Origin: a virus
Taxonomy: Duplodnaviria; Caudoviricetes
Virus record (IMG/VR): IMGVR_UViG_3300033156_000251
Coordinates: 1-50,623 of that record
Strand: one strand, 5' to 3'
Length of the DNA: 50,623 nucleotides
The stretch's first letter is position 1. Every line of letters starts with the position of its first letter. Position numbers and translations under genes: made by a program. This document shows positions 1 through 45,311 of this stretch, one piece after another. The notes beneath the pieces are model-generated. The model did not search any database, had not been told where the DNA came from, and saw only the letters and a program-made list of their open reading frames with translations.

Positions 1-114
1 AAGAAAGCCTGAACAAGTAGTCTTTACAGACAAAGCCACTAGAAAGATTGTAAATAAGACTACAGAGTTCGCTGAAAAATACTCTTCTGCTATACCCATT
101 GTTCAATCCGAAAA
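1..114. repeat. Terminal overlap, identical to 50510-50623
   Basis: The first 114 nt (aagaaagcct...ccgaaaa) recur exactly at the window end and an ORF reads through in frame, indicating a circular or circularly permuted genome of ~50,509 bp. Confidence 0.97.
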
Positions 115-4540: not shown

Positions 4541-4966
4541 ATGTTTAATGAAAGACCAAAACGAGAGACAATTTATATGAAGTTTGCTTACCTATGGGCA
4601 GCTCGTTCCTTATGTAAGCAAGAGAATCGTAAAATTGGGTGTGTTATAACTACAGAGGATATGCGACTAGTTCTCTCAACCGGGTACAATGGGCCTCCTA
4701 GGCCATTAGGTAATTCAGCTTGTAGAAACATCCCTGGCGATTGTGGTTGTAGTCACGCAGAGGCTAACGCTATTGCTATGGTGGACGGCACTATACCCGA
4801 CAAAATTATGTTTGTCACCATGGCACCCTGTGAGTATTGTGCTAATCTAATTGTTCAATCAAACATTTTTAAAGTATTCTATTGTGAGCCTTATAGGGAC
4901 AGTAGAGGTTTAGATAGGTTAGAAGCATGCGGCGTGATAGTAATAAGAATGGCCTACCCCATTTAA
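4541..4966 (+). CDS. dCMP deaminase
   Basis: TGYNG, HAEANAI and PCEYC zinc-deaminase motifs. Confidence 0.92.
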   Translation: MFNERPKRETIYMKFAYLWAARSLCKQENRKIGCVITTEDMRLVLSTGYNGPPRPLGNSACRNIPGDCGCSHAEANAIAMVDGTIPDKIMFVTMAPCEYCANLIVQSNIFKVFYCEPYRDSRGLDRLEACGVIVIRMAYPI

Positions 4967-6909
4967 AAGGTAAGGTAGTATCAATAGACACAGAAGCTAC
5001 AGGGCTAGATCCTTATCACGGAGACAGAGTGTTCTGTTGGTCTTATTTTACAAGTAAGGGCGAATGGGGTTTTATGCATAAGACTTCTAAAAACCTTCAA
5101 TGGCTAGAAGATTTGTTAAATGACAGTAGTAAACATATAGTATTTCACAAAGCCAAATATGACCTGCAGATGTTATATTTTGAAGGTATTGATGTTTTCA
5201 ATCTTAAATCAGATATTCACGATACTATGATTATGTCCAAGGTTCTTAATTCAGTAGAGAAGCGACACAATCTACGGTATCTCTCTCAAAAACATTTATC
5301 AGTGAATACCTCTGATAAAGATGATATTGAAGATTGGATAAAAGCTAATAAGCGAGCCTTTACCAAACAACATGGTAGGCCACCTAATTTTAGTGATGCT
5401 CCTAAGGAGCTTGTCAAGAGAAGGGTTATGTGGGATGCTCAGATGACTTTCTGGTTATTCAATAAGTTATATCCCCAGGTTCAAAAGATATGTCCTGGCT
5501 TATATGAGACGGAAAGGAAACTAATCTTTGTTTGCCTGGACATGGAACTAACAGGCATAACCATTGATATATCACGAGCCGAGAAATTGAGAAGCCAAGC
5601 TTTACACAGTCTCAGTAAATTACAAACAGAGCTTAACAAACTTGTATGTCCTCTAACTATAGAATATGGTAATAAGACAGAAGTTGTTAAAGAGTTCAAT
5701 CCTAACAGTCCTTTAAAACATCTTCCAGCCGCTTTCAAGAAGTTAAAGCTCAAGCTTAAATATAGAACTAAACCGAAGAAGAATAAAAAGAAAGGTGTTA
5801 AGACTGGTGGCGGTAACTGGTCATTTGATGAATACTCCTTAATCAGATACACCTCAAAACCGCTAGCAGAAGTTTTACAACAAGCTAGTAAAGAGAATTG
5901 GTCTTTTGGTAAATTTTATAGCACCATACACAGGGTTGTAGCCAAACACAAACTATCAAAAGCCGAACTTCTACCTGCCCTTGTACTGAAATACAGAGAA
6001 CTTACTAAATTAGTATCTACCTACTATAATCATCTTATTGAAGATTGTACTAATATTCACACAACCCCAAATGGTACTAAACTAGGTATACTACATTGTA
6101 AATTCAATCAGAGTGAAGCCTCTACTGGTAGATTCAGTTCATCAAAACCTAACCTACAAAACATGCCCAGATTGTTGGGGCCTCGTGAATGTTTTGTGCC
6201 TCGTAAGGGTAGAAAGTTTTGGTTAATAGATTATGCTCAGGTAGAGATGAGATTTTATACTCACTTCGCCAAAGATAAAAAGATGGCGGAAAGAATTCCT
6301 ACTGATTTGCATAGAGGTACAGCTTCTGAGATGTACAAAAAACCACCTGAGCAGGTCACACATGAAGAAAGAGAAAGAGCTGCTTCTATAAATTTCGCAG
6401 TTATTTATGGGTCTGGTCCTGCTACTATGGCTGAGACTTTATCGCGTAGAGGTTCACCTACTACTCAATCTGAAGCAGTACGATTCATAAATAAATATCA
6501 TAGTATATATCCTTCTGTTCGTAGAACTGCTAGAGAACTATCTCGTCAGTTAATCTCCCAGGGTTATATAACTAACCCCTTCGGCAGAAGATATTATATA
6601 CCCAGCAAGTTCAGCTATAAAGCTCTTAACTACATGTGTCAGGGTACTTCTGCCGACTTAATCAAACAAGTTATGGTTAAGGTTTGGACTTGGCTACGCA
6701 AAAATGGGTTCAAAACCAAAATACTCTTAACCATACATGATGAGCTTGTATTTGAGGTGCCCCACTCAGAGGAGCAAGTAGTAGTACCAAAATTAGTTGA
6801 GATGATGGAAGACAGAAGTTCTTACTTCATACCCATCACTGTAGGAGTAGATGTCGCTAAGAAGAACTGGAATAGGAAGGTGAAATATGAAGTTACCCCA
6901 AGTTTATGA
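4927..6909 (+). CDS. Family A DNA polymerase with 3'-5' exonuclease
   Basis: DTEATG exonuclease motif, TGRFSSSKPNLQN, DYAQVEMR, QGTSAD and IHDEL. Start position is uncertain. Confidence 0.95.
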   Translation: MRRDSNKNGLPHLKGKVVSIDTEATGLDPYHGDRVFCWSYFTSKGEWGFMHKTSKNLQWLEDLLNDSSKHIVFHKAKYDLQMLYFEGIDVFNLKSDIHDTMIMSKVLNSVEKRHNLRYLSQKHLSVNTSDKDDIEDWIKANKRAFTKQHGRPPNFSDAPKELVKRRVMWDAQMTFWLFNKLYPQVQKICPGLYETERKLIFVCLDMELTGITIDISRAEKLRSQALHSLSKLQTELNKLVCPLTIEYGNKTEVVKEFNPNSPLKHLPAAFKKLKLKLKYRTKPKKNKKKGVKTGGGNWSFDEYSLIRYTSKPLAEVLQQASKENWSFGKFYSTIHRVVAKHKLSKAELLPALVLKYRELTKLVSTYYNHLIEDCTNIHTTPNGTKLGILHCKFNQSEASTGRFSSSKPNLQNMPRLLGPRECFVPRKGRKFWLIDYAQVEMRFYTHFAKDKKMAERIPTDLHRGTASEMYKKPPEQVTHEERERAASINFAVIYGSGPATMAETLSRRGSPTTQSEAVRFINKYHSIYPSVRRTARELSRQLISQGYITNPFGRRYYIPSKFSYKALNYMCQGTSADLIKQVMVKVWTWLRKNGFKTKILLTIHDELVFEVPHSEEQVVVPKLVEMMEDRSSYFIPITVGVDVAKKNWNRKVKYEVTPSL

Positions 6910-7735
6910 AGATCTACATAAAAGAGTACTAGCCAATAAAGATTTACGACTGTATCACGATGTTTATTACAGTTGTGACTGGAATCTTTGGGATGTCTGG
7001 ACACCATCAGGATATGGGATACAGAAAATTCCTTTCCTGCAGGGTGTTTATATCGACTTTAACCATCTGGAAGATACAAAAGAATTATTTCACAAGTATT
7101 GGAACAGAAGTAGTTTTAGAACCAAAGGGTTTGCTGTTACTTTTCATTTTGGTAACATCATCCAACAAAAGCCAGAGATTTTAAAGCTCATAGATCAACT
7201 AAAACTACAGGGAAATAAAGGCAGTAAAGAAGCCAGGCAGATTAGAACCAAGCTAAGAAAGTTAGGACACAGTGGGGGTTTAATTGATACTAAAAAAGCT
7301 ACGGGGGGTTTATGCATTACTTCTATTATATTCAGAGCAAGTCCCGTGAGGGAGATCTACCCTCTTGTAACTTTTAGAACTGTAGAAATTACTAGAAGAT
7401 TATTAGCTGATATAATGTTGGTTGAGAATGTTTTTAGACAAGTTCTCTCAGACTGTTATCAATACATTAAGAAGGTGGAAATAAACTTTGGTATTCCTTG
7501 GGTGGCTAACTATAATCTTATACTTGTCAAGAATTTATTACCTGTCGCAATTAAGTCTTTACATCCCAGCTTAAAATCTTATTTGAAAATCAACAAAGAA
7601 GTTAACTATACAGCGCATAAAAAAGCCCAGGAGTTGTCTAATAAATTTAGTAGCTCCCCCATGATTATAAATGGAAAGGTACAAGCTGAATTCAGGAAGT
7701 TCAAGTTCCGTCCTCTGATTAAACGAGGCGAATAA
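6887..7735 (+). CDS. Divergent thymidylate-synthase-fold protein (paralog 3) with inserted RKLGH module
   Basis: GLCITSIIF...FRTVEITRRLLAD (Cys, Arg, Asp at R+11). Contains RQIRTKLRKLGHSGGL. Confidence 0.5.
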   Translation: MKLPQVYEDLHKRVLANKDLRLYHDVYYSCDWNLWDVWTPSGYGIQKIPFLQGVYIDFNHLEDTKELFHKYWNRSSFRTKGFAVTFHFGNIIQQKPEILKLIDQLKLQGNKGSKEARQIRTKLRKLGHSGGLIDTKKATGGLCITSIIFRASPVREIYPLVTFRTVEITRRLLADIMLVENVFRQVLSDCYQYIKKVEINFGIPWVANYNLILVKNLLPVAIKSLHPSLKSYLKINKEVNYTAHKKAQELSNKFSSSPMIINGKVQAEFRKFKFRPLIKRGE

Positions 7736-7744
7736 TTTTTTAGT

Positions 7745-7773
7745 CTGAAAGGTTTACGAGTTTTCGTTATAAT
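7745..7773 (+). promoter_or_regulatory. Sigma70-like promoter of the candidate sRNA
   Basis: CTGAAA (7745-7750), 17-bp spacer, TATAAT (7768-7773). No ORF follows before the terminator. Confidence 0.65.
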
Positions 7774-7779
7774 AAAGTT

Positions 7780-7845
7780 GGCTCAGGAAGAGCTCTGCCC
7801 GGCAGTCCTCCCGCAATTGCGTTGCTCCGGCTGCTGGGCTTTTTT
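7780..7845 (+). ncRNA. Candidate trans-acting sRNA: CsrA-site hairpin plus anti-RBS loop terminator
   Basis: GGCUC-AGGAA-GAGCU hairpin, then an 11-bp stem (7797-7807 with 7829-7839) around a 21-nt loop containing AUUGCGUUGCUCC, then U6. Confidence 0.7.
7797..7845 (+). terminator. Intrinsic terminator with an unusually large loop
   Basis: GCCCGGCAGTC...GGCTGCTGGGC followed by TTTTTT. Confidence 0.75.
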
Positions 7846-7943
7846 ATATACCCTCATTTTTAGGCCAAAAATGGCTGTTTTCGGTCAAAATGGCCGTTTT
7901 TGATATCAAAAAGGCTGGTTTTTTGTAGAAACTCAGAGAGTCT

Positions 7944-8123
7944 CGTAAGTCTTTATTTTGCAAGTATTTACGTGAATTGTAATTACTTAGGTAAGTTCTT
8001 ACTTTACAAGCACTTACAACGATTTTTGAGATGCCCACGGGTATAATTATACCCATATTTAATTTAATAAAAATTTACCCAAAATTTTTTGCTACGTAAG
8101 TGCTTGTTTTGCATAGGTTTATC
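7944..8123. repeat. Three copies of a 29-bp imperfect palindrome (7944-7972, 7990-8018, 8095-8123)
   Basis: For example CGTAAGTCTTTATTTTGCAAGTATTTACG. Five more copies occur elsewhere. Confidence 0.8.
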
Positions 8124-8154
8124 AAAACCCTGAAAATTTTTTTGTAAAATTTCA

Positions 8155-8183
8155 TTTACATACCCCCTTTCCTATAGTATAGT
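8155..8183 (+). promoter_or_regulatory. Early sigma70-like promoter
   Basis: TTTACA, 17 bp, TATAGT (with an adjacent TATAAT at 8183-8188). AT-rich upstream; lies ahead of the small-gene cluster. Confidence 0.65.
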
Positions 8184-8218
8184 ATAATTGTAATTTAAAA
8201 TTGAATACTTAATTTTAA

Positions 8219-8231
8219 GGAGCAACGCAAT
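8219..8231 (+). promoter_or_regulatory. Shared extended RBS motif GGAGCAACGCAA (also 8470-8481, 8767-8778, 9147-9158, 10434-10445 with one C>T, 44881-44892)
   Basis: A 12-mer running from the SD to the ATG, identical in five genes and with one substitution in a sixth. Confidence 0.9.
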
Positions 8232-8457
8232 GAAAACTTATTATCTCACAATCTGGTACACTCAAAGCAAACATCCAATTTATTGGCAAACTGTAAAAAG
8301 GTACATGGGTAAAGGTGAATTCTTAGGGGTAGGCGCAGACCAAAGCGGTTCCTACATAGCCTTCGGATTTCCGACTGAGAGAACTGCAGAAAACGCTAAA
8401 AAGAGGTTAGAGAAAAGTGATATCGAAGGCATAGTTGATATTGATATTGAAAGCTAA
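8230..8457 (+). CDS. Early hypothetical protein
   Basis: Preceded by the GGAGCAACGCA RBS motif. Confidence 0.8.
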   Translation: MKTYYLTIWYTQSKHPIYWQTVKRYMGKGEFLGVGADQSGSYIAFGFPTERTAENAKKRLEKSDIEGIVDIDIES

Positions 8458-8481
8458 AAATTTTATCAGGGAGCAACGCAA

Positions 8482-8742
8482 ATGAAAACTCAAAAACGAC
8501 AAGCAATCAAAGACAAAATCTTCGCCGACACACTTTCAGTTCGCAAAGGTATCTACACAGCAAAGTGGACGTATTTTTACTCACACGGTAAAACGGCGGA
8601 GTACTACAAAAAAAGAGTACAGGAACAACTTGAAGGTGCTGAAATTTTAGAATTCGGAGATCACTGGCACGCATTCTGCGGTGGAGCAAAAGCTGGTTCC
8701 GCCAGGGACTCGTACTTCTGGGTAACATTTAAATTAGCATAA
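8482..8742 (+). CDS. Early hypothetical protein
   Basis: Preceded by the shared RBS motif. Confidence 0.8.
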   Translation: MKTQKRQAIKDKIFADTLSVRKGIYTAKWTYFYSHGKTAEYYKKRVQEQLEGAEILEFGDHWHAFCGGAKAGSARDSYFWVTFKLA

Positions 8743-8779
8743 AAGTCTGAAACTAAAAATTAAAAGGGAGCAACGCAAA

Positions 8780-9124
8780 ATGGCAACTACAAAAACAAAA
8801 ACAAATCATACGGCACACATAGCACATAACGTCTGCAAAGCACTAGCTAAGCAAATAGAAGAGGCTAAGGATCCAGACGAGAGAGCCAAACTGGAAGTAC
8901 TATACGAAATAAATTCAGGTATTAAATCTACGGCATATAGTTTGGAGAGTAACCTACTAAAAGCCATAGAGAGATTAGAGGACGCACTTTCAGATTTAAG
9001 AGAGCATAGGGTTAGTTCCTTAAATACCTGCGGTCTGCTTCAAGGGGTCGAGGAACAGGTCATGTCTGACTTGGGCAAGCTGGTAGGACTTTACGAAGCA
9101 AGAGATTATGCTGAAAGGATATAA
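8780..9124 (+). CDS. Early helical hypothetical protein
   Basis: Preceded by the shared RBS motif. Confidence 0.8.
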   Translation: MATTKTKTNHTAHIAHNVCKALAKQIEEAKDPDERAKLEVLYEINSGIKSTAYSLESNLLKAIERLEDALSDLREHRVSSLNTCGLLQGVEEQVMSDLGKLVGLYEARDYAERI

Positions 9125-9158
9125 CACTAACCTGATAACTTTTAAGGGAGCAACGCAA

Positions 9159-9425
9159 ATGAAAACGAAACTGTCAAAAAAACAATACATGCAAAATCTC
9201 AGACAAGAGGTTCAAGCAGAATTACGAAGCCTATATAAAGAAATGCAGGCGGATGGAGAGGAATTCGTAGACCATACATCTTCGGTTAAGAAAGCCTCCC
9301 TGTCTAAAATAGTAGAATTACTTGAAGTAGAATATGCCTGGGACGCAGAGAGCATTGCTCGAGTATTACTATCAGCAGCAGTTGAAGAAGTTGATGATTT
9401 CATGATAGAAGGTCTCAACTCATAA
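9159..9425 (+). CDS. Early acidic hypothetical protein
   Basis: The shared RBS motif places the start at 9159 (MKTKLSKK), not 9108. Confidence 0.8.
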   Translation: MKTKLSKKQYMQNLRQEVQAELRSLYKEMQADGEEFVDHTSSVKKASLSKIVELLEVEYAWDAESIARVLLSAAVEEVDDFMIEGLNS

Positions 9426-9441
9426 ATCTGGGAGACTAGAA

Positions 9442-10221
9442 ATGAATACACAAACACTACAAAAATATTTACAGCCCAAACTTAACAAGCTTATTAAACA
9501 GGCAGAGCAGTATCACAAACAAGCCTGTGGTATAGTCGAAGCCGAACACAAGTCTAAGTTGTTAGCCAAACGCAAACATCAATACTCTCTCAATCCTCAT
9601 CGGACAGAGCGCATACATCCTGACGAGATAAAGGACAAGGCTCTTCGTAAAGAAGCTCGTGAGGTGGAACGTAAACTATTCGTAAATTTAGACAATCTGC
9701 TACTCAACAAGAGTTTAGTAACACAAAATGCTCAAGAGGTTAAACGTCAAGCAGAATTAGTGATAGCAAACCTGCAACGTCTAGAGAATGCTTTACAAGA
9801 ACTGCCTAAGTGGGTCAAGTACACAGAAGAGCAAGCAAAACTACTACGTTACGAACGGCGTAACGAGATATCACTAACGAAAAGAATCTTTGGGACTGAG
9901 GCTCCACCCAAAGCTTCTTCTAATAACACCGGAGCCAGTGAAGGAGAAATTAAAATGGCAAAGAAAGACACCACATCAATCAAAGAACTCTTGACCAAAC
10001 TTGAGAACGAGGTCGACCAGAAGCAGAAGCGTCTGATTAGAGCTGCACTTCGAAGGCTGGGTCACCGGGGCGGTCTAGGTAAAAAGACTGCTAAGAAGGT
10101 GGTCAAAAAGACTACTAAGAAAACCGCTAAGAAAACTACTAAAAAAGCTACCAAAAAGACTGCTAAGAAAGCTACTAAAAAGACTGCTAAGAAAGCTGCT
10201 AAAAAGAGTGATAAGAGCTAA
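9442..10221 (+). CDS. Coiled-coil protein in frame with a C-terminal RKLGH-module/histone H1-like protein (internal start 9955)
   Basis: GGGAG RBS before 9442 and AAGGAG RBS before ATG 9955. KKTAKK/KKATKK repeats at the C-terminus. Confidence 0.75.
   Translation: MNTQTLQKYLQPKLNKLIKQAEQYHKQACGIVEAEHKSKLLAKRKHQYSLNPHRTERIHPDEIKDKALRKEAREVERKLFVNLDNLLLNKSLVTQNAQEVKRQAELVIANLQRLENALQELPKWVKYTEEQAKLLRYERRNEISLTKRIFGTEAPPKASSNNTGASEGEIKMAKKDTTSIKELLTKLENEVDQKQKRLIRAALRRLGHRGGLGKKTAKKVVKKTTKKTAKKTTKKATKKTAKKATKKTAKKAAKKSDKS
10081..10206 (+). repeat. 12-bp-unit coding tandem repeat (KKxx) forming a histone H1-like tail
   Basis: aaaaagactgct/aagaaaactact-type units encoding KKTAKKTTKKAT... Confidence 0.85.
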
Positions 10222-10291: not shown

Positions 10292-11416
10292 ATGGCTAAA
10301 TACAAATACAAAGTTGTTTGTAGGAACTGCGGCAATATAGAAGGCATGAACCGAGAAGGACTTGACTTGTCTCGACTAAGGTGCTTCAGTTGTAAAAGCG
10401 TAGGGAGTTACAATTATGTTAAACTCAAAGAAAGGAGCAATGCAATGAAACGGAAGTGGAAGTTGGATGACAGAGTAGTAGTTGACTTTGATGGTGAACC
10501 ATATTCTGGTTCAATCTCAAAGCTAACTAAATCAAAAGCAACAATATTATTTGATGATGGAGATGTGTTTAGTGTAAAGCTTAAGGACTTAAAGCCTGAG
10601 CCTGAACCCGAGTCTGAGTCTGAGCCTGAACTCGAGTCTGAGTCTGAGCCTAAGGCTACAGGCAAATCAAGAAGAGGAAAGAAGGGAGGTTATATCCAAT
10701 ACACTGTCGAGTGGGATAAACCCAAAATCAACTTCAAGTTTAAGGCTGAGTCAGGTGTTATGTTTTATGGCTGGTGGAGAAAAGTTCCATCAGAAGTTGA
10801 ACAAGCTTTCGGTGTCGATCTTATGGTAGAGTATAAGGGTTCGAGGTACAACGTTGATACCCTACACTACTACGAGCATGATCCGCGTAACAATATCAAC
10901 TCCCTCAACGCAGATCTTTGTGCTGCTGCTAACAAATGGTTGTATCAAAAATGTCAAGGCACGTTTGATACAATAGAAAGTCTTCAACAAAGAGCAGCCA
11001 AGCCTACTATTAGAATCAACCGGTTGGAAACTCTTGACAAGATTATTCTTAAGCTTAAAGAGTACAGAGACGTAGCTCTTAGGTCTGGTGGCACTCGGAC
11101 AATGATGTTTACTGGGGATTTTCCTGAAACTGACCCGAGCATGCGTATTCAAATGGATCTGACTAAACAGGCTTTAGGTCTTAAAGGCAAAGCCGTTCCT
11201 AGTCTTATCAACGGAGTCATGCTTGATGAGGTAGCAACTGACAACAGCAAGAAAAAGAAGGGGAGAGGTAAGAGTCTTGAACTTACACCTGATCCCAAAC
11301 TTGTAGAGTCTTTGATATCACAACTGAAGTTATCAAAAGATAAAGCAGAGAAACGCAAACTTCGAAGCGCTTTGAGAAAGATGGGTCACAGAGGTGGAAC
11401 TAGAAGTATTAGTTGA
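10292..11416 (+). CDS. Zn-ribbon + Tudor/SH3-like + RKLGH-module protein (internal start 10445)
   Basis: CRNC..CFSC; DDRVVVDFDGEPYSG...ILFDDGD; C-terminal KRKLRSALRKMGHRGG. The shared RBS motif precedes ATG 10445. Confidence 0.75.
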   Translation: MAKYKYKVVCRNCGNIEGMNREGLDLSRLRCFSCKSVGSYNYVKLKERSNAMKRKWKLDDRVVVDFDGEPYSGSISKLTKSKATILFDDGDVFSVKLKDLKPEPEPESESEPELESESEPKATGKSRRGKKGGYIQYTVEWDKPKINFKFKAESGVMFYGWWRKVPSEVEQAFGVDLMVEYKGSRYNVDTLHYYEHDPRNNINSLNADLCAAANKWLYQKCQGTFDTIESLQQRAAKPTIRINRLETLDKIILKLKEYRDVALRSGGTRTMMFTGDFPETDPSMRIQMDLTKQALGLKGKAVPSLINGVMLDEVATDNSKKKKGRGKSLELTPDPKLVESLISQLKLSKDKAEKRKLRSALRKMGHRGGTRSIS

Positions 11417-25464: not shown

Positions 25465-28400
25465 TCATTCCGTTCTAGCATAACCAGCCATACTATAACC
25501 AGTAAGTTTCCCAGATTTTATATCATCCCAAATTTGTTTATCTAATATACGAGTAGTTAGCAGCCAGCTTCCTTTTTTTACTTCATGGCCTGCTATCACC
25601 AAGTCATTTGGAGCGATATAACTTTCTAGTACTCTAGCTTTTACTGGTTTACCTTTATGGTTCATTTTAAACTTTTGAACTTCTTCCATGAATTGGTAAG
25701 CAGCTTTACGAATCTCATCCTCAGTTGTCATGTCACCCTGAGAATCCACTTCATCGGGTTCGTATACAATTCCACATACTATTCGCTCATCTGATTTCTG
25801 TACAAAGAAGGGTACGTACTTCTCAAACTTCTTCTCTTCGGATTTAAGTCTTGAAATCATCCAGACCCTTCCTTCCCCAACAGGTACATAAGCAAATAAG
25901 TACTCGCCATCCTTCAACATTTTGCAATTGGCAAAGACCATCTTCTTAGCATGCCTATCAGCCTGGGTTACTTTAAAACTGAAATCATCTAATTGTAGCA
26001 TAGCGGCATAAGTGTTAGCGAAAGCACCTACCTCTCCAGGTTCAAATATCTCCAATCGTTTGGAACCAGCATCCATCCAGCTAACAGGCCCACGTATAGT
26101 TTCAGCTGTAGGTTCTTCAGCATGCGGTGTCTTCCACCCAAATCGAAGTTTGGCGTTAGGTTCATTCAAGAATTTATCTAGCTTGCTGAGGCCTGTCAAG
26201 TTACCTATCATGATCTCCCCACCTTCAAAATACTTGTCACCTTTACGTGCAAGCCTCAAATCTAGATGTGCTGCTTGTTCACCTATGGCTCCCTTCAGAA
26301 GCATTCTGAGTTTTCGATAATTGTGCCTGGAAGCATAAGCTTCACTTGCTACTTTTTTCAAATCATCTAAATACTTCTCTTCTATACCCATGATGTGCAA
26401 TTGCAAAACACCCCTACCTGTATCACCTACTTCATAATCAATATTGCCCTCAACTTTCTTCTGCAGTATGTTTCCTCTTGAAGCTATCGCTACAACTTGA
26501 TTAGCATAATACGGTTCTTTCCTATCCTTGTCTATATCTATGACCCTAGGTCCCAGCCACTGTAATTTATTGTTCTTTTCATCAGGGATAATCTCCTCAA
26601 TACCTATAGTAAGGATGTCTCCTGGCTGAGCCTCAATTTTTGTATTGAAAGTGTTTCCAAAATCTACGTAGGTCTTACCTCTGAATTTTATAGTGTTGGT
26701 ATAATCAGTGTCGCCTAGAAGAACACCACAGTGATAATTATAAGCATCGCCTTTTTTGGTTGTGTTGCGTTCAAAAACTATGACTTTGATTTCTGCTTCC
26801 AACTTTATCTTTGACCATCCTTCGTTGCTGCCATCTGTATCCCAAATGCTGTCAAGTGCTTTTATCACAACACCTTCACTCTGAGGCAGTTTAGAAAGTT
26901 TGTTAAAAGCCCTTTCAAGTTCTTTCTGGTTATGGGCTACAACGAAATTAGTCAAGGCGAAGTTGTCACTTCCTTTTAGATATTTGTTATAGAATTCCTC
27001 TAATTTCTTACGTCTGTCCTTCAAAGGTTTTTCATGCAAATCTTCAGACCAGTATGGCAAATCAAAACACGTAGCTTTGATTACATCACCCTCTTCAAAC
27101 ACGGGTTTGTCAGCCATTAACGTCATGAGTTTGATTCTTGGTAGAGGCTTTCCTTTTCTGTCAATACCCAGATTGAAATCCAGTATAAAATCTTCATTGA
27201 CTTTAGAAAGCACATCGGTCAAATCCTGAAATGCCTTGGTTCTGTCTTGTCTGCCTTCACTCCATATCCTAAGCTTGTCCCCTGACTTTTCGGCAATACA
27301 ACGAAAACCATTTAGCTTTTCTTCTACATCTACTGGCCACTTGTCTTTGATCCAGTCAGCTATATCTTCAAATCTAAAAGCTTCAGTTATATTCGCCATG
27401 GTAGGCTTCGGTGGTGTATATTTACCAAAGGGCTTCAGGACGCTTTTCAAAAACTCAAATTTGTCTTTGATATTCGGAGATGTATTGTCAGCAAAGTTTT
27501 TACTTGCCTCTCCTTGTATCTCTTTTACAGAGATGATTTCACCTGCACCGTCACCTTTGGTGGCCCATTTCTTAAAACAATTTTTACAAAACCACGCATG
27601 TCCGTTTCCTTCCGCCCACAAACACTCGATAGTAGGTTTAGCAGAACAACTCATGCACTGGTCTCTTCTGTGTCTAGATTTTTGTAGCTTGTCCAACTCG
27701 AGTACTAAAATAGCAGAGTTGTCTCCGCCAGATATCTTGTGCAATTTAATGCTATTGTCGGGCACACCTATCTCGGAGACAACTTGTTTTTTGAAATCTG
27801 GGATATCCTTGTATATTTGTTTGTGAGTCGGGTCCTGTCTTTCGCCTAAAGGTACGATAAAGATAGCACGCTTCTTAGCGACACGTACAGCTTCGCCAAT
27901 AACATCATTAGTATTAGCTACGTGCTCCAGGAAATGTACGCCTATGACATTATCAAAGATGTTGTCATCGTATGGTATTTCCTTCTTCTCCAAATCTACA
28001 TTATCAACTCTGAGTCCTTTACTCTTACACATGTCTAAGGCAGTCTTGTTGTTGTCTATACCTTTTACTCTATAAATACTAGACAGGCGTTTCTCTAAAC
28101 GACCAGACCCACAACCTAACGACAAGACTGTGTCACCGACAAGATACTTGGTAAGTTCCCTATACTCAGCTTCAAAATCTTTTGACCACGTGTCAAGTCC
28201 TTCATAATAAGCTCGTTCTGTCTCAGCTGACTTTCTATAGTCCTCTTTTACTTCTACCTTCTGAGAATCTTCTTTAGGACGTAAGACTAAATCGTAGAGT
28301 GGTATATATGTACTATGAGGCCCACGTTCAGAATATATAAATTCCTTTTCTTTGCTAGCTACGTTCTTCTGCTTGTCAAGTATCCTAACAAGCTTGAGTT

Positions 28401-28806
28401 CCAAACCGGTATCTCTCCTAGACTCATTCTCACGTAGTATAATATCCACATCTCCCGCTTTCTCCATGTTATTTACTGCAGAACCTCCGAGAGACACGTA
28501 GTCAGGTACAACTACTATTTCTCCAAGATTAGTCGTGTCAATCCCAAGCTTGACGATTTCCATTGCTTTCTTAAAAGCTGCCCTATCTATATCTTCTGTG
28601 CTATGCTCAAGCTTACGGCGATTGTATTCATTGAGCAATAACCTATACTTCGACAGAAAGCTCGAACGGTTCAAACTACCTACTACAGCTTTGTTATTCC
28701 CTTTGAAATTCTTATTCCAAAGCTGTATGAAACGCAGCCTTAATATCAGCAGCTCTTTATCTGGAGCCTTAGAAAGACTCGTCCTAGTAACTTCTTCTAT
28801 ACGCAT
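25465..28806 (-). CDS. Multidomain prohead-protease polyprotein: nucleotidyltransferase + SAM methyltransferase + Zn finger + ATP-dependent DNA ligase + LigD-phosphoesterase-like + XkdF-type protease
   Basis: GGS...DVD; LSLGCGSG...HFLEHV; CMSC..CKNC; EEKLNGFR..FDL..EGVVIK..WSKIK; HLDLRL; IVYEPDEVDSQGD...H...GSW...IKSGKLTGYSMAG. Confidence 0.85.
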   Translation of the reverse strand: MRIEEVTRTSLSKAPDKELLILRLRFIQLWNKNFKGNNKAVVGSLNRSSFLSKYRLLLNEYNRRKLEHSTEDIDRAAFKKAMEIVKLGIDTTNLGEIVVVPDYVSLGGSAVNNMEKAGDVDIILRENESRRDTGLELKLVRILDKQKNVASKEKEFIYSERGPHSTYIPLYDLVLRPKEDSQKVEVKEDYRKSAETERAYYEGLDTWSKDFEAEYRELTKYLVGDTVLSLGCGSGRLEKRLSSIYRVKGIDNNKTALDMCKSKGLRVDNVDLEKKEIPYDDNIFDNVIGVHFLEHVANTNDVIGEAVRVAKKRAIFIVPLGERQDPTHKQIYKDIPDFKKQVVSEIGVPDNSIKLHKISGGDNSAILVLELDKLQKSRHRRDQCMSCSAKPTIECLWAEGNGHAWFCKNCFKKWATKGDGAGEIISVKEIQGEASKNFADNTSPNIKDKFEFLKSVLKPFGKYTPPKPTMANITEAFRFEDIADWIKDKWPVDVEEKLNGFRCIAEKSGDKLRIWSEGRQDRTKAFQDLTDVLSKVNEDFILDFNLGIDRKGKPLPRIKLMTLMADKPVFEEGDVIKATCFDLPYWSEDLHEKPLKDRRKKLEEFYNKYLKGSDNFALTNFVVAHNQKELERAFNKLSKLPQSEGVVIKALDSIWDTDGSNEGWSKIKLEAEIKVIVFERNTTKKGDAYNYHCGVLLGDTDYTNTIKFRGKTYVDFGNTFNTKIEAQPGDILTIGIEEIIPDEKNNKLQWLGPRVIDIDKDRKEPYYANQVVAIASRGNILQKKVEGNIDYEVGDTGRGVLQLHIMGIEEKYLDDLKKVASEAYASRHNYRKLRMLLKGAIGEQAAHLDLRLARKGDKYFEGGEIMIGNLTGLSKLDKFLNEPNAKLRFGWKTPHAEEPTAETIRGPVSWMDAGSKRLEIFEPGEVGAFANTYAAMLQLDDFSFKVTQADRHAKKMVFANCKMLKDGEYLFAYVPVGEGRVWMISRLKSEEKKFEKYVPFFVQKSDERIVCGIVYEPDEVDSQGDMTTEDEIRKAAYQFMEEVQKFKMNHKGKPVKARVLESYIAPNDLVIAGHEVKKGSWLLTTRILDKQIWDDIKSGKLTGYSMAGYARTE

Positions 28807-29288: not shown

Positions 29289-32200
29289 TCATAACTCCGT
29301 TAAGTAAACGTTCTTCCCTACTACCTTATCAACTTTAAAAGATGTGCCTTTCGGAAATAGTACTTCTTGCTCCGTTTTTTGCCAGGACAGGTTAGTAAGA
29401 TCCCTTCCTGATTTACTTTTTACTATTAGTCTTATATCACTGGGGTATCTTTCATCAACTAGCTTTTTACTTTTTGAACACGACATAAAAGACTTAGATT
29501 TAAATATGTTCCCAGGAACGAAAGTTCTTTCAAAGAATTTTTTGTTGCTCTTGGTTATATACATACCTCTATAGCAAGTTCCACTCCAGCCATCAAGTTT
29601 CAATAAAGACTTTTGTAGCTCATCTGCCTTTTTAAGATAATACTTAGTTTTTACTGGATCCTCAAAACCTTCACGTAAAGCATGGTTCACATTGACATAT
29701 CCTGGGCCTGTATAATCTTGTATGTTGCGCATATCTGCTTCAGTAAACTTTTCGCCACTTGCTTTAACAGGCATTGGTTTTGCCTCATCAGGTGCTACCA
29801 CCTTTTTTGGCCTGGCTACTGCTTTTGGTTTAGGTGAAGTCTCAGGCAATTTAGCTTTTGCTGGTAGTTCTTTTAAGTGTACTTCCCAGTAATCCCCTCC
29901 ATACTTTCTATCATACTTCAGCTTGGAACTAACTATTTTAAATTTCGTATTCTTTCTAATGAGAACTTCATTTTCTGCCCTATGCATGAAATCTCTAAAC
30001 TTGCCTAACTCCGCTCCTGATTTCAAATCTATCTTCATTACAACCCCTACTCTATCAGGCTGGGAGATTTCCGTTTGTACAAATGGCTTTATTTGTTTTT
30101 CATATTTAGCGGTGGAAGCAAAAGACTCAGCTGTCCAGGTCTTCGCTTTTTTACCAAACATTTTAGCCGCTTGCTTTCTGCTTAGGGTCATGCCTCGATA
30201 AACAGTACCCTTATAGTCGGGCATATGACTTACTAGCTGCTCCAAGTAAGGCAGATAATAAGAAGCCTGTTTGCCTCTCCAGGAAGAGACGGGTTTAATT
30301 CCTCTTTGTATCTTAGTCATCTCTTCAGATATAAAATCCTCTGACTGCCATTGATAGACTGCAAACCTTTGTCTAGCGTTTGCATATTTGAAAACTTCTT
30401 TGTGACTTAATTGACCGGTCGGTATGGGAGTTGGTTTTACATATCCCTTCTTTTTGTTCTCTTTCAGAGCCTTTTGCCAGAGCTTCCACTTGGGGTTTAA
30501 AACACGTTTATCACGCTCATTCAGTATGTATTTATAATACTTCCAGTTTATCGGGCACAAGCCACCTTCTCTTGCTAGAGCATACAAACGCTCATCATCA
30601 GACATGGTTTTACCTCTCATGGCTGTTCTAGTGTCAGTGCCCCAATTAGGATAGGTTGGTTTACCAACTGCCACGGGTTCTGGTTCTGGAGCAGGTTTTG
30701 GTTTAGGCTTAGGCTTAGGCGTCACTTTCGGTTTAGATGGAGCCTTAGGCAACTTACCTTCTACAGGTTCAATGTAATAAGTTATTTCCTTAGCACCCTT
30801 TACTCTACGAGTAGTTTTACGTAATACTCTGAATCTTGTAGCTGCCCCAACTAGCACTTCTTGCTCTTCTGGATTTGCAGCTACAGTTGTAAAGTCAGCA
30901 CATCGGCGAGGCGCTTTCTTTACTACAAATAGAACTTTCGTATGAACATCTTTTATCTTAGCTCCATAACCTGCAAAACCCTCCGCCCATTTCCGGCTCT
31001 TAGAAAAGCTAGTCAAAGCAGATGTGGTAAATTCCTTGTTAGCAAGCTGTTCTTCTAACCTGGCCAAATCCTTCTTTCCTTTTGTCCCTATAAATCTCAT
31101 GCCTCTGTATATTTCACCCTTCACAGGTGGAGCAGTTGAAATCAGACGTTCAAGACGAGCAATAGTTTCTAATTGCAAACGTTGATTAGCAGTTAATGCT
31201 GAAAGTTTCTTTTTACCAGATAATATAGCTGCTTCCAGTTTTCGTAGTAGGTTAAATTCTGAAGTACTATAACCAGCAACTGCTGACTCATCTCCCCAAG
31301 TAAATGACTTGCGCCATTCTTCTATTGTTTTGTAACGAGGTAGCCTAGACATGTCAGATAAACCACCCTTGTGCCCAAGCTCTGCAAGTTTCCGGCGTAT
31401 CTTCCTACGCTCATCTGCGTCAAGTGTCCGGTGCACAGCAGTCATCAGTTCTTCTACTGTCATACCTTCTGTCACACCTTCTGGGACTGGAATTTTTGGC
31501 CTAGGTTTAAGCCCACCCTTATGTCCTAATTTCCGCAGTTGCCGGCGTATTTTACGTTTATCTGCAGGGGACTTAGCCTTAGCTAATTTATCTAGCAAGT
31601 CGTCTATGTGCCTATCCCTTAACTGGTCAGGTGGAATACAAGCTGCTTTTGACATCTTGATAATTCCCCTACAGACTGGAGTGTTTGCCACAACTGGTAA
31701 CAAAGCACATCTGCAGTTTGGGTGTACTGGTATAAGACTTTTGGCTTCCTTGAGAGTATATATTCTTCCATTCATTTCACCACATGTAGGACAACAACCT
31801 TCATAGGCAGAGAATTCAAGCTTTTCTACTCCCAAGTCACTCATACCAATTGTATAACCCAAATTCTGTGCACGAGCAGTTTCAGTTCTTGCAATAGTTA
31901 TTGTTCTACGACGATGTGTCTTACCAGCATATTTTTGTACTCTCTTGTCTATCTCATCCGCTGTAAGTTCGGGGTATCTTTCTTTGTCTGATAGCAGGTT
32001 GCGGTAATTTACAATAGACTTAGTTTGCCTCTCAGTAAGCCCAACTAGAGGACGCAACTCTCTGGCAATTTTATCCATCGACTTACCTTCTTTTATACCA
32101 GTAGCGATGTAGGTGCGTATGCCTTTACGTGTTTCGTTATTCACCTCTCTTACTAAATTTGCTGTAAAGCTCTTTGCTGCTTTTACAGCTTCAGGATTGA

Positions 32201-39766: not shown

Positions 39767-39848
39767 CAGATTTTTCTCACTCAAATATTCATTTTGACTG
39801 CCTTTTTTGAACCAAAATGATATGTTCAAAACAAAAAAGGAACAAATT

Positions 39849-40652
39849 ATGGCCCGTAAACCTACTTATACAGAGAAAGAGTTTAAATCTGCCTACAGAA
39901 AAGCTAAATCTGTTAAAGAGCTAGCAAGTATGTTGAACTTGTCAATACCTGCAGTGAATTATAACCGACAGAAGTATAACCTGAGCTATGGTAAACCAGG
40001 TAGACCAATTTCTAAAGCTAGCAAGAAATTTAGTTTCAAGTTAGCCAGGAGCTACACTCTAGACACTACTCAGCTTGAATTAGCTCAGCGGTTTGATATA
40101 ACCACTCAGACCGTACGTAACCATTTAAGTAAGTTTATCTATCGTCCTAAGGAATATAGGCTATATCCAAAGCTACCTGTGCCTGAAAAGATATCAGATA
40201 TTCCTTACTTGCACAGACTTGCCAAAGATTTGAAGAATCCCAAAATATCTCGAAAGAAAGCTTATCAGAGATACCAATCTGCTCATACTCTCACCTACGA
40301 AATAGCTCATAGATACATGTATGATACTTCTTTACGGGATTTAGCTAGGCATTTCCACAAGTTGATTCCAGTCATCAAAAAACACCTAGAGAAGTTTGTG
40401 CTCTATCCTCAGGAATATAACCTTCTGAAAGACAAAACAATAAAATACAGAGGCAAGACTTATTCTAAGCTACCACCTCCACGCCGCATAGAGCACATCA
40501 AAGTCATAAACCTTTTAATAGCAGACCCGGAAGCCATTGAAAGACCTACTAAGTTGCTTAACCCTAAGCTGCCTGGAATATCACGCAAACTAGTGACTGA
40601 CTATTTCACTCAGGGTAAAAGAACGCTGGAGGAATACGAGGGAATCAAATGA
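39849..40652 (+). CDS. Basic protein with repeated HTH-like units
   Basis: SVKELASML, QLELAQRFDITTQTVRNHL and SLRDLARHF...KHL. AAGGA RBS before ATG 39849. Confidence 0.6.
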   Translation: MARKPTYTEKEFKSAYRKAKSVKELASMLNLSIPAVNYNRQKYNLSYGKPGRPISKASKKFSFKLARSYTLDTTQLELAQRFDITTQTVRNHLSKFIYRPKEYRLYPKLPVPEKISDIPYLHRLAKDLKNPKISRKKAYQRYQSAHTLTYEIAHRYMYDTSLRDLARHFHKLIPVIKKHLEKFVLYPQEYNLLKDKTIKYRGKTYSKLPPPRRIEHIKVINLLIADPEAIERPTKLLNPKLPGISRKLVTDYFTQGKRTLEEYEGIK

Positions 40653-44850: not shown

Positions 44851-44891
44851 CCAAAATTAAAAAATAGTCTTAACAAGAAAGGAGCAACGCA

Positions 44892-45311
44892 ATGGAAACT
44901 TCAAAGCTAAGAGAGCAGCTAAGCAACATTCAGAAACTGCTAGAAGAGAAGGAAGAGCTTGAAGCCCGCTTACAGAAGGTCTCCAAAGAGGTTGAGGACT
45001 TATTAAAGAAACTTCTACCTAAGCCTAAACCTAAACGCGGGTTAGCCCATTCTCTTGACTACTATCTAATCAGAGCAATGGCTCCAGGAGCACATATGAC
45101 CCCCTCGGAAATAGCAGCTAAAGTAGTTGAGTTGGGTTATCCTTCAAGTAACAAATCACTCGCGTCTTATATACAAACATATATAACAAAGAAGAGGAAG
45201 GATATTGTAAAAGTAAGACATGGAGTTTATATGCGTAGGGACAACAGAAATCTAGTTCAAATTCACCAACTCAACAATAAGGAATTTAATTATGAAAAAG
45301 CTAATTGTTGA
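44892..45311 (+). CDS. Coiled-coil + winged-helix DNA-binding protein (putative)
   Basis: N-terminal heptads, then MTPSEIAAKVVELGY...IVKVRHGVY. Preceded by the shared RBS motif. Confidence 0.7.
   Translation: METSKLREQLSNIQKLLEEKEELEARLQKVSKEVEDLLKKLLPKPKPKRGLAHSLDYYLIRAMAPGAHMTPSEIAAKVVELGYPSSNKSLASYIQTYITKKRKDIVKVRHGVYMRRDNRNLVQIHQLNNKEFNYEKANC

What the first reader, a model, noticed from the sequence alone, without database searches (positions are those of the whole stretch)
7745..7845. Candidate phage sRNA whose terminator loop is antisense to a shared RBS of six genes
Seen: a promoter (CTGAAA-17-TATAAT) is followed by ~66 nt with no ORF, ending in an 11-bp stem and U6. The 21-nt loop contains ATTGCGTTGCTCC (7816-7828). 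This is the exact reverse complement of GGAGCAACGCAAT at 8219-8231 and 44881-44893 (13/13), and of GGAGCAACGCAA at 8470, 8767 and 9147 (12/12). The one variant target (10434, C>T) would still pair by G-U wobble. Every target spans the SD up to or into the ATG. Known: loop-presented antisense seeds block ribosome loading. Inference: one trans-encoded RNA silences a dispersed set of early genes that share a standardised 'address' in their RBS. I know of no described phage system with this layout.
Basis: partly seen in the sequence, partly recalled or inferred. Interest (0 to 1): 0.93.

Follow-up and report, generated by a model that had tools for sequence, protein, structure and literature searches.

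The report
Phage small RNA matching shared RBSs
An uncultured phage and about fourteen relatives carry a tiny RNA gene whose hairpin loop is the exact antisense of a ribosome-binding 'address' shared by several of the phage's own genes, and the loop and the address change together from phage to phage, which points to a built-in RNA switch acting on a chosen set of genes.

Summary
GGAGCAACGCAA occurs 5 times at ribosome-binding sites, once with a G-U-compatible change, and once reversed in the 21-nt loop of an 11-bp hairpin followed by T6. The window is a complete 50.6-kb virus record. Fourteen distinct uncultured relatives (DNA polymerase 47-75% identical, GC 34-56%) carry the same large-loop hairpin downstream of the polymerase. 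In 11 of the 15 phages the loop is 10-14 nt complementary to SD+spacer sequences of the phage's own downstream genes. The address differs between lineages, and each loop matches its own phage's address best. In the window lineage the loop and five RBSs share a derived G>C change (quick tree). A sigma-70-like promoter sits at a fixed position upstream in 9 of 15. There is no Rfam match and I found no description in print. Most likely this is a ~66-nt trans-acting antisense sRNA that occludes the SD of a self-encoded regulon. Expression, repression and timing are untested. It is a new variant of a known kind; the closest analogues are P1/P7 c4 RNA and the LhrC/OxyS terminator-loop seeds.

The parts
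7745..7773 (+). Promoter-like element of the sRNA gene: -35 CTGAAA (7745-7750), 17-nt spacer, -10 TATAAT (7768-7773)
   Evidence: 10 of 12 matches. A CT[TG]ACA-like hexamer, 16-18 nt, then a TATAAT-like hexamer lies 18-32 nt before the hairpin in 6 of 15 family members (83-92 nt in L127, L240 and L228, which also score 10 of 12). Random windows of the same loci reach these scores in 1.2-9% of trials.
7780..7845 (+). Predicted ~66-nt small RNA. The 5' end is inferred at about 7 nt after the -10 box and the 3' end in the T-run.
   Evidence: fold. No Rfam family at gathering threshold. The only sub-threshold hit is on the other strand. The transcript itself has not been observed.
7780..7794 (+). 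Small 5' hairpin (GGCUC-AGGAA-GAGCU)
   Evidence: A 5' hairpin or a CAAGGAWG stretch is also present in close relatives. Its function is unknown.
7797..7845 (+). Terminator hairpin: 11-bp stem (7797-7807 / 7829-7839), 21-nt loop (7808-7828), T6 (7840-7845)
   Evidence: It is the only terminator-like hairpin in the window that keeps a large loop, out of 3 strong ones found. Of 14 relatives' hairpins compared, 14 keep 8-9 of their 9 inner pairs, with 3-5 pair types per position.
7816..7828 (+). Anti-RBS seed ATTGCGTTGCTCC at the 3' side of the loop, next to the 3' arm
   Evidence: Opening cost is 4.9 kcal/mol and duplexes with targets are -19 to -22 kcal/mol.
8155..8183 (+). Separate promoter-like element of the target operon (TTTACA-17-TATAGT), about 35 nt before the first target RBS
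   Evidence: A TTTACA-17-TATAxT element is conserved at the same place in L206, L207 and L246.
8219..8231 (+). Target 1: SD+spacer+AT of the ATG of a 75-aa ORFan (8230-8457); 13/13 complementary
8470..8481 (+). Target 2: RBS of an 86-aa ORFan (8482-8742); 12/12
8767..8778 (+). Target 3: RBS of a 114-aa ORFan (8780-9124); 12/12
9147..9158 (+). Target 4: RBS of an 88-aa ORFan (9159-9425); 12/12
10434..10445 (+). Target 5: RBS of the conserved 323-aa protein (10445-11416); 11/12 plus one G-U
   Evidence: Orthologues in L207, L240, L127, L128 and L008 carry their own phage's address.
44881..44893 (+). Target 6: RBS of a 139-aa protein (44892-45311). It lies between the SNF2-type helicase and the exonuclease, and its stop overlaps the exonuclease start. 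13/13.

Best explanation
The region 7745-7845 is a small-RNA gene of a family conserved in a clade of uncultured ~50-57-kb phages. It lies just downstream of the DNA-polymerase module and just upstream of the promoter of the next operon. The RNA is about 66 nt: a short 5' hairpin, then a Rho-independent terminator whose unusually large loop presents 12-13 nt antisense to GGAGCAACGCAA(T). That sequence is the Shine-Dalgarno plus spacer (and the start of the ATG) shared by six of the phage's own genes. Pairing probably nucleates at the open CUCC end of the loop. It would cover the SD and keep 30S subunits off these mRNAs, so one RNA would repress a self-encoded regulon defined by an RBS 'address'.

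Shown here:
- the sequence anatomy;
- conservation of the hairpin;
- loop/RBS complementarity in relatives, and its co-variation;
- the conserved promoter-like element in the AT-rich relatives.

Inferred:
- that the RNA is made as a discrete species;
- that it acts in trans;
- that the effect is repression;
- when in infection it acts.
For: (1) Six RBS sites and one reversed copy in the loop, far above chance (7 found against 0.19 expected). They are the top six duplex partners genome-wide after the locus's own antisense strand.

(2) Family. Of 36 polymerase-anchored metagenome loci examined, 14 have the TGCTCC hairpin and one more (L209) was found by folding. Collapsed with the viral loci, that gives 14 distinct relatives plus the window. 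All 15 fold into a stem with a 15-29-nt loop that carries the motif at its 3' side.

(3) In 11 of these 15 the loop has at least one + strand complement of 10-14 nt in the DNA held. There are 32 + strand hits against 2 - strand hits, and shuffled loops give 0.03-0.64 per locus. By the contexts printed, 26 of the hits sit at SD+spacer positions directly before a start codon.

(4) Co-variation. The addresses differ: GGAGCAACGCAA in the window; GGAGCAAGGCAA in L206, L207, L126, L211, L127 and L240...GGCAT in L246; GGAGCAAGCA in L216; AGGAGCAAGAA in L008; AAAGGCAATGC in L228. Each target set matches its own-class loop best (window 11.5 against at most 7.5 for foreign loops; L008 11.5 against at most 9; L228 10.5 against at most 7; L216 10 against at most 9).

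(5) On a quick DNA-polymerase tree the window is sister to L206 (support 100) inside a clade that uses GGCAA. The window's G>C change in the loop and in 5 RBSs is therefore derived and concerted.

(6) In the complete relative G001, all 8 forward sites (4 exact, 4 with one mismatch) are RBSs. The single reverse copy is the loop, and the backwards-read control gives 0. Of the variant targets, 4 of 5 (window 1, G001 3 of 4) are C>U changes that keep a G-U pair.

(7) Targets include lineage-specific ORFans and one conserved 323-aa gene, so the shared RBS is not a leftover of recent gene duplication.

(8) A promoter-like element scoring 9-10 of 12 lies upstream of the hairpin in 9 of 15, 18-32 nt away in six of them and 81-92 nt in L127, L240 and L228. 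In L206, L207, L246, L208 and L209 it sits directly after the polymerase stop codon.

(9) Energetics are favourable: duplexes of -19 to -22 kcal/mol against opening costs of 4.9 (sRNA) and 1.8-4.4 (targets) kcal/mol.

(10) Precedent for terminator-loop seeds on SD/TIR sequences: LhrC (passages of PMC4132741) and OxyS-fhlA (discussion of PMC11979758).
Against: - No transcript evidence of any kind.
- Five seed nucleotides are predicted to sit in a 5-bp inner helix (unpaired probability 0.08-0.16), with two flanking ones at 0.16-0.28.
- Pairing 12-13 contiguous bp inside a closed 21-nt loop is sterically demanding.
- In L126, L211, L008, L227 and L128 no sigma-70-like promoter stands out (7 of 12, reached by 31-83% of random windows). 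L126 and L211 also lack a T-run and run straight into the next gene. The 'independent sRNA' reading therefore does not hold uniformly.
- L128 has only 9-nt matches. L227 has only a split 6+6 match.
- L208 and L209 could not be tested, because only 353-595 nt of downstream DNA is held.
- The window's own orthologue of a gene targeted in L246, L127 and L207 (9442-10221) lacks the address.
- The excess of G-U-compatible variants could partly reflect transition bias.
- The tree is the quick one; the careful search did not finish.
Confidence: 0.65

Rival explanations
1. This reading keeps the RNA-level pairing but not a free-standing sRNA. The hairpin would be the 3' UTR of the polymerase-operon mRNA, or a 5' leader or attenuator of the downstream genes. 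It would act in cis on read-through transcripts, or after processing, and would fold back on the nearest downstream RBS.
For: - The hairpin is always co-oriented with its first target and lies 200-900 nt upstream of it.
- It also necessarily terminates or decorates upstream transcripts.
- GC-rich relatives lack a recognisable promoter, and L126 and L211 lack a T-run.
- P1 c4 RNA is likewise made from the same operon as its target (review passages, PMC12197685).
Against: - One loop can hold only one RBS at a time in cis, yet there are 6 targets in the window and 8 in G001. Some lie far from the hairpin: 44881 in the window, and 27882, 30527 and 35339 in G001.
- Strong T-runs are present in 12 of 15.
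- The target operon has its own conserved promoter between the hairpin and the first target.
- The conserved -10 box lies right after the polymerase stop codon.
Confidence: 0.15
2. The pairing is real but protective or activating rather than repressive. For example, it could mask the GGAG of selected mRNAs from an SD-directed nuclease (as T4 RegB cuts GGAG), stabilise them, or time their release.
For: A phage nuclease that cuts GGAG in early-gene RBSs is known (passages of PMC3014915). The targets are a selected subset of the phage's GGAG RBSs.
Against: No RegB-like gene was recognised among the ORFs scanned, although not all ORFs were scanned. A duplex over SD-to-AUG blocks initiation while it lasts, so net activation would need an extra release step for which nothing here speaks.
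Confidence: 0.08
3. The repeat is a DNA-level feature. The 13-bp inverted repeat (7816-7828 / 8219-8231) would flank the 390-bp promoter region as an invertible switch, or the motif would be the site of a DNA-binding protein.
For: In every relative the reversed copy and the first forward copy bracket the intergenic promoter region.
Against: - The forward copies are multiple direct repeats placed exactly at SD positions.
- The reverse copy always sits in the loop of a hairpin whose stem co-varies.
- Variant sites keep G-U pairing, which matters only in RNA.
- No integrase or invertase was found among the ORFs scanned.
- All four AT-rich relatives with a recognisable target promoter have it in the same orientation.
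Confidence: 0.04
4. It is an ordinary terminator whose loop happens to hold a relic of an inverted gene start, with no regulatory role.
For: Read on the minus strand, the loop looks like an RBS followed by TTG. Terminators after polymerase genes are unremarkable.
Against: A relic would decay. Instead the loop is kept and tracks lineage-specific address changes across polymerase divergence down to 47% identity. Large loops weaken terminators, yet a large loop is kept in 15 of 15. The minus-strand ORF is not conserved (read by eye).
Confidence: 0.05

Closest known systems
c4 antisense RNA of phages P1 and P7 (immI operon)
   Same: It is a phage-encoded small RNA whose loop-presented sequences pair around a ribosome-binding site of the phage's own mRNA and block translation. 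The RNA and target sequences differ between related phages in matched fashion, which gives heteroimmunity (review passages, PMC12197685).
   Different: By my recollection (no call), c4 is cut out of the same transcript as its target, uses two loop elements on two sites of one mRNA, and controls one antirepressor pathway of a temperate phage. Here there is one loop and 6-8 dispersed RBSs carrying a standard address. There is an apparent own promoter and terminator, and no sign of lysogeny genes in the ORFs scanned. No Rfam family matches.
Bacterial sRNAs with C-rich (UCCC/CUCC) loop seeds that bind SD sequences: Listeria LhrC, S. aureus RNAIII/RsaE; E. coli OxyS-fhlA
   Same: The seed is exposed in hairpin loops, including the terminator loop. 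It pairs with the G-rich SD or translation initiation region and blocks initiation (PMC4132741 passages; PMC11979758 discussion).
   Different: Those seeds are short (4-9 nt), imperfect and redundant, and they act on host genes whose RBSs are not standardised. Here a single 12-14-nt perfect match covers SD+spacer, the targets share an identical address, and both partners are phage-encoded and co-evolve.
T4 RegB endoribonuclease and RegA translational repressor
   Same: This is a phage device that shuts off a set of the phage's own genes by recognising their translation initiation regions. RegB cuts GGAG in early-gene RBSs, and RegA competes with ribosomes on about 30 mRNAs (PMC3014915 passages).
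   Different: Those are proteins with loose sequence specificity. Here the recogniser is an RNA and the specificity is a 12-13-nt code.
3'-UTR-embedded sRNA genes with a promoter inside or just after the upstream coding region (DapZ, MicL; recalled, no call)
   Same: The gene layout is the same: the -35 box lies in the 3' end of the upstream gene in most relatives, and the terminator is shared with the upstream mRNA.
   Different: Those sRNAs use single-stranded seeds upstream of the terminator and depend on Hfq. Here the seed is in the terminator loop, and nothing is known about a chaperone.

Membership tests
Any described RNA family (Rfam 15, 4227 models, including whatever phage antisense RNA families it holds) | Match to a covariance model at the curated gathering score | tested here: not met
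   0 matches in the whole window. (region 7700-7900, E-value up to 1): only GP20-b at 19 bits against a gathering score of 36.2, on the opposite strand.
Trans-acting SD-occluding sRNA (loop-seed class) | Contiguous complementarity to SD/TIR of several mRNAs, above chance | tested here: met
Trans-acting SD-occluding sRNA (loop-seed class) | Seed accessible in a loop | tested here: inconclusive
   the three 3'-terminal nucleotides (UCC) have unpaired probability 1.0, but 5 seed nucleotides lie in a weak inner helix (0.08-0.16). Opening cost is 4.9 kcal/mol against duplexes of about -21 kcal/mol.
Trans-acting SD-occluding sRNA (loop-seed class) | Own promoter and terminator giving a discrete small transcript | tested here: inconclusive
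   A promoter-like element is conserved in 9 of 15. A T-run is clear in 12 of 15, weak in 1 and absent in 2. No RNA data are available (one search listed none).
Trans-acting SD-occluding sRNA (loop-seed class) | Seed and targets co-vary between relatives | tested here: met
Trans-acting SD-occluding sRNA (loop-seed class) | Represses translation of targets | not testable with these tools
   Needs reporters or toeprinting.
P1/P7 c4-type immunity RNA | Two loop elements pairing with two sites of one antirepressor-operon mRNA; RNA processed from that same transcript (features recalled, plus review passages) | tested here: not met
   There is a single loop seed, 6-8 separate target genes, and a separate promoter for the target operon.
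Rho-independent terminator | GC-rich stem followed by a U-tract | tested here: met
   (window). A T-run is present in 12-13 of 15 family members.
Rho-independent terminator | Small loop (the scan tool uses 3-8 nt) | tested here: not met
   The loop is 21 nt in the window and 15-29 nt in the family. The consensus scan only picks up an inner 5-bp sub-hairpin.
Invertible promoter switch | Inverted repeats flanking a promoter, plus a site-specific recombinase | tested here: not met
   The inverted repeats do flank the promoter region. No recombinase family was hit in the 40 ORFs scanned. The remaining ORFs were not scanned, and orientation variants could not be tested without reads.

The most novel reading that the evidence does not exclude
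The RBS 'address' and its matching loop form a private, evolvable code. Each phage lineage would keep its own 12-14-nt address and change it in concert across the loop and all member RBSs. The RNA would then regulate its own regulon and could also discriminate against, or silence, the corresponding genes of co-infecting relatives. That would be an RNA-based heteroimmunity or competition system in apparently virulent phages. New genes would join or leave the regulon simply by gaining or losing the address.
Probability: 0.15. Interest if true: 0.9.

Novelty: new variant of a known kind. Interest (0 to 1): 0.8.

Why it matters
Phage-encoded regulatory RNAs that act on the phage's own programme are few. 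The classic cases (P1/P7 c4, P22 sar, lambda OOP) each control a single locus.

Here one small RNA appears to address a whole set of genes through an identical SD+spacer tag, and the tag and the RNA loop co-evolve across a family of uncultured phages. If confirmed, three things follow:
- It would show that RBS spacer sequence can serve as a regulatory address.
- It would provide natural orthogonal sRNA/RBS pairs (a C-type and a G-type address that differ by one compensated base) that are ready for testing and possibly useful as translational switches.
- It would give a handle on the function and timing of a block of ORFan genes and of a conserved 323-aa protein of unknown function.

Tried and rejected
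- Close relatives. megablast of 6800-9500 against isolated phages found no match. The 282-aa protein as anchor in viral contigs found no relative. tblastn of the polymerase against isolated phages found at most 30% identity, so no cultured relative is available. The 323-aa target found no match in isolated phages.
- Pattern scans of viral contigs. The RBS motif and the loop 14-mer gave mostly single chance hits. Screening the 80 loci with model R1 added only L272, plus L305, which is the contig of L127.
- Covariance model R1. It was built from 6 close sequences and proved too narrow. In 54 sources it recovered its 6 seeds, L216 at E = 0.17 and 3 other weak hits. I therefore did not use it for pair statistics.
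- Alignments. The MAFFT alignments A3 and A6 were not structure-consistent, so I did not run the count of structure pairs. I counted stem pairs in a script instead.
- Genome-contig scan: one distant partial polymerase match, not followed up.
- Sequencing runs: no RNA holder was listed.
- Protein atlas for the 323-aa target: no usable hit. Pfam and PHROGs found nothing for the six window targets. Among the 8 G001 targets, only one was recognised, a PD-(D/E)XK exonuclease.
- Pseudoknot idea. I considered pairing between the conserved 5' CAAGGA stretch and the loop. It is possible in GGCAA-type RNAs, but the window does not co-vary, so I dropped it (sequences, read by eye).
- Minus-strand 20-aa ORF that uses the reversed RBS with TTG: rejected, because it is not conserved.
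- Other polymerase relatives with terminators after the gene (L224, L221, L230, L222, L239): no loop/RBS match of 9 nt or more.
- Hairpin-less relatives. None of 10 loci showed an SD-containing 10-mer shared by 3 or more gene starts. Most of these loci are short, so this is weak evidence.
- The 'at_TIR' column was too lax (any start codon within 12 nt). I rely on the contexts printed instead.
- The tree is the quick version. It held 25 rows, all loci with a near-full-length polymerase. I left out the duplicates L007, L210, L215, L218, L223, L226, L238 and L247, and the partial-polymerase loci L220, L229, L231-L249, L240 and L246.
- Papers. I read passages only (find mode) of PMC4132741, PMC11979758, PMC12197685 and PMC3014915. 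All other papers were seen as search listings or abstract starts only. Supplements were not opened.
- The statement that this layout is not in print rests on the searches and 71 of the held library only.
Full report
WHAT IS THERE

The window is a complete virus record of 50,623 bp with direct terminal repeats. Its + strand carries a replication and nucleotide-metabolism module:
- an SNF2-type helicase, an exonuclease, a Sak4-like annealing protein, SSB and a Toprim-MCM primase-helicase;
- thymidylate synthase, dCMP deaminase and a family-A DNA polymerase at 4927-6909;
- a 282-aa protein of unknown function at 6887-7735.

It has an 11-bp stem, a 21-nt loop and T6 (-30.5 kcal/mol, z = -2.2). The loop holds ATTGCGTTGCTCC.

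Its reverse complement, GGAGCAACGCAA(T), occurs five times exactly and once with a C>T change. Every copy is on the + strand and every copy sits directly before an ATG. Shuffles give 0.19 matches against the 7 observed. This is the most repeated 11-mer in the genome. The six sites are also the six best duplex partners of the loop on either strand, apart from the locus's own antisense strand.

The phage's general RBS is AAGGAG followed by 7-9 nt. The shared CAACGCAA spacer is therefore special to these six genes. Four of them open the operon that starts 374 nt downstream of the hairpin (75-, 86-, 114- and 88-aa ORFans). One is a 323-aa protein later in that operon. One is a 139-aa protein 37 kb away, between the helicase and the exonuclease.

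THE COMPARATIVE TEST

No isolated phage is close. Polymerase-anchored searches found uncultured relatives: 4 distinct ones in IMG/VR and 44 loci in metagenomes, at 47-75% polymerase identity.

An unbiased repeat count in the first relative, L008 (GC 56%), gave the first hit. Its top 11-mer was TTCTTGCTCCT, just after the polymerase stop. Its reverse complement lay at two RBSs, one of them belonging to the orthologue of the 323-aa gene.

I then examined 36 metagenome loci that include the polymerase 3' end. Fourteen have a TGCTCC-containing hairpin within about 50-200 nt of the stop, and L209 has a TTGTTCC variant. After collapsing duplicates this is 14 distinct relatives plus the window.
- All 15 fold into a strong stem with a 15-29-nt loop, and the motif always lies at the 3' side of the loop against the 3' arm.
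- The stems differ in sequence but keep pairing. In 14 of 14 compared, 8-9 of the 9 inner pairs are standard, with 3-5 pair types per position (L227 was left out because of a bulge).
- A T-run follows in 12, is weak in L228, and is absent in L126 and L211.
- In the window this is the only terminator-like hairpin that keeps a large loop.

LOOP AND RBS GO TOGETHER

In 11 of the 15 phages the loop has at least one + strand complement of 10-14 nt in the DNA held. There are 32 + strand hits against 2 - strand hits, and shuffled loops give 0.03-0.64 hits per locus on both strands. From the contexts, 26 of these hits are SD+spacer sequences directly before start codons.

The four phages without such a match are:
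- L128, which has three 9-nt matches (AAGGAGCAA) at RBSs;
- L227, which has a 6+6 match split by an internal loop (GGAGCA..GCAATG);
- L208 and L209, for which only 353-595 nt of downstream DNA is held.

In the complete relative G001 (56.8 kb) the motif occurs 8 times forward (4 exact, 4 with one mismatch). All eight are at RBSs, including three far from the hairpin. It occurs exactly once in reverse, in the loop, and the backwards-read control gives none.

The address is not the same everywhere:

| Address | Phages |
|---|---|
| GGAGCAACGCAA | window |
| GGAGCAAGGCAA | L206, L207, L126, L211, L127, L240 |
| GGAGCAAGGCAT | L246 |
| GGAGCAAGCA | L216 |
| AGGAGCAAGAA | L008 |
| AAAGGCAATGC | L228 |

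A loops-by-targets matrix has its maxima on the own-class diagonal. On a quick polymerase tree the window is sister to L206 (support 100) within a clade that uses GGCAA, and GGCAA is spread over several sub-clades. The window's G>C change is therefore derived. It happened in the loop and in five RBSs alike, and the sixth RBS has T, which still pairs as G-U. Of the five one-mismatch target sites seen (window 1, G001 4), four are C>U changes that keep a wobble pair. That fits RNA pairing, although transition bias may contribute.

NOT DUPLICATION, NOT A PROTEIN-CODING RELIC

The window's six target proteins are not detectably related to each other. Targets 1-4 have no orthologue in the relatives at E < 1e-4. 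The 323-aa gene is a target in six lineages. The window's 259-aa gene (9442) lacks the address although its orthologues in L246, L127 and L207 carry it. So genes gain and lose the tag, and the tag is maintained by selection rather than by descent. The minus-strand reading (RBS plus TTG, 20 aa in the window) is not conserved.

IS IT A SEPARATE GENE?

But a CT[TG]ACA-like hexamer, 16-18 nt, then TATAAT/TATATT, scoring 9-10 of 12, recurs upstream of the hairpin in 9 of 15 phages (18-32 nt from it in six, 81-92 nt in L127, L240 and L228). In L206, L207, L246, L208 and L209 the -10 box starts within a few bases of the polymerase stop codon. Random windows of the same loci reach these scores in 1.2-9% of trials.

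In the window a 282-aa gene has been inserted between the polymerase and this unit, and the promoter-hairpin unit stayed intact. The target operon has its own conserved TTTACA-17-TATAxT element about 35-45 nt before the first address. In the AT-rich clade the picture is therefore a free-standing gene of about 60-75 nt.

In the GC-rich relatives (L126, L211, L008, L227, L128) no sigma-70-like promoter stands out. In L126 and L211 the hairpin lacks a T-run and is followed within about 30 nt by a lysine-rich protein gene. There it may be part of a longer RNA.

MECHANISM

The most economical reading is antisense occlusion of the SD. The loop's open CUCC end (unpaired probability 1.0 for its last three nucleotides) could nucleate on GGAG. 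A weak 5-bp inner helix (opening cost 4.9 kcal/mol) would be displaced. A 12-13-bp duplex of -19 to -22 kcal/mol would then form over SD, spacer and, at two sites, the first bases of the AUG. The targets are accessible, with opening costs of 1.8-4.4 kcal/mol.

The sign of the effect (repression), action in trans and the timing are all inferred. 'Early' is not established. The targets lie at the distal end of the + strand module, behind their own host-type promoter.

COMPARISON WITH WHAT IS KNOWN

- No Rfam family matches.
- Terminator-loop seeds that pair with SD or TIR sequences are known in bacteria: LhrC (PMC4132741, passages) and OxyS-fhlA (as discussed in PMC11979758).
- Among phages the nearest thing is the c4 RNA of P1/P7. 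Its loop sequences pair around an RBS, and its specificity differs between the two phages (review PMC12197685, passages). But c4 controls one operon.
- T4 reaches a similar end with proteins, RegB on GGAG and RegA on about 30 TIRs (PMC3014915, passages).
- Four full-text searches found no description of a phage RNA aimed at a standardised RBS of many of its own genes. This covers the held library only.

I therefore file it as a new variant of a known kind: an antisense sRNA that blocks the SD. What is new is the address-coded, co-evolving, self-directed regulon.

VERDICT

My confidence is about 0.65 in the trans-acting repressor reading, and about 0.8-0.85 that the loop/RBS complementarity is a selected RNA-level interaction of some kind. 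Interest is 0.8.

Noticed in passing
window 6887-7735, 9442-10221, 10445-11416; L126 10088-10390; L211 2330-2625; L008 10134-10457; L255 1119-1523: A short protein motif of the form R-x-x-(L/I)R-x-x-LR-(K/R)-x-GH-x-GG recurs in several otherwise unrelated proteins of these phages. In the window these are the 282-aa, 259-aa and 323-aa proteins. In relatives they are lysine-rich proteins and a 134-aa target. Its function is unknown. It could be a shared docking or targeting peptide.
   Followed up: no
window 7866-7925 and 7950-8150: The region between the sRNA terminator and the target promoter holds three tandem-like units of the form CAAAA(A)TGGCYGTTTT. It also holds a palindrome, GGGTATAATTATACCC, at 8039-8054. 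An 11-mer, ACAAGCACTTA, is present at 8006 (+) and 8097 (-) and again at 14660 and 39754. A TACCCAAAA(T)TTTT stretch is shared with L206 and L207. These are possibly operator, origin or UP-element sequences.
   Followed up: no
L127 10095-10125; L240 ~935-965; L128 ~7295-7315: In relatives with a longer spacer between the polymerase and the hairpin, a mini-ORF with a very strong SD precedes the hairpin. It encodes MKYRKQ-stop in L127 and L240, and ATG-AAG-stop in L128. This could be a leader peptide or a start-stop element that influences the RNA.
   Followed up: no
window 9442-10221: This 259-aa gene lies in the middle of the target operon but has a different RBS (GGGAGACTAGAA). Its orthologues in L246, L127 and L207 carry their phage's address. 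Regulon membership therefore changes between lineages.
   Followed up: partly
window 44892-45311 / 45292-46254: The distant target gene overlaps the start of the PD-(D/E)XK-type exonuclease gene by 20 nt, so repression could spread by translational coupling. In G001 the exonuclease gene itself carries a one-mismatch (G-U-compatible) address.
   Followed up: partly
window 25465-28806 (-) and 29289-32504 (-): Two very large virion-module proteins (1113 and 1071 aa) combine head-morphogenesis or protease-like regions with hits to ligase-like, methyltransferase-like and ADP-ribosyltransferase-like PHROG families.
   Followed up: no
window 17-98 and 50526-50607: 11-mers repeated at both ends with a constant offset fit the direct terminal repeat reported for the record.
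   Followed up: no
window 39807-40652: The first gene of the + strand module has winged-helix and sigma-70 region-4-like hits and a weak D5-like regulator hit. It is a candidate phage transcription regulator that might set the timing of the promoters discussed here.
   Followed up: no
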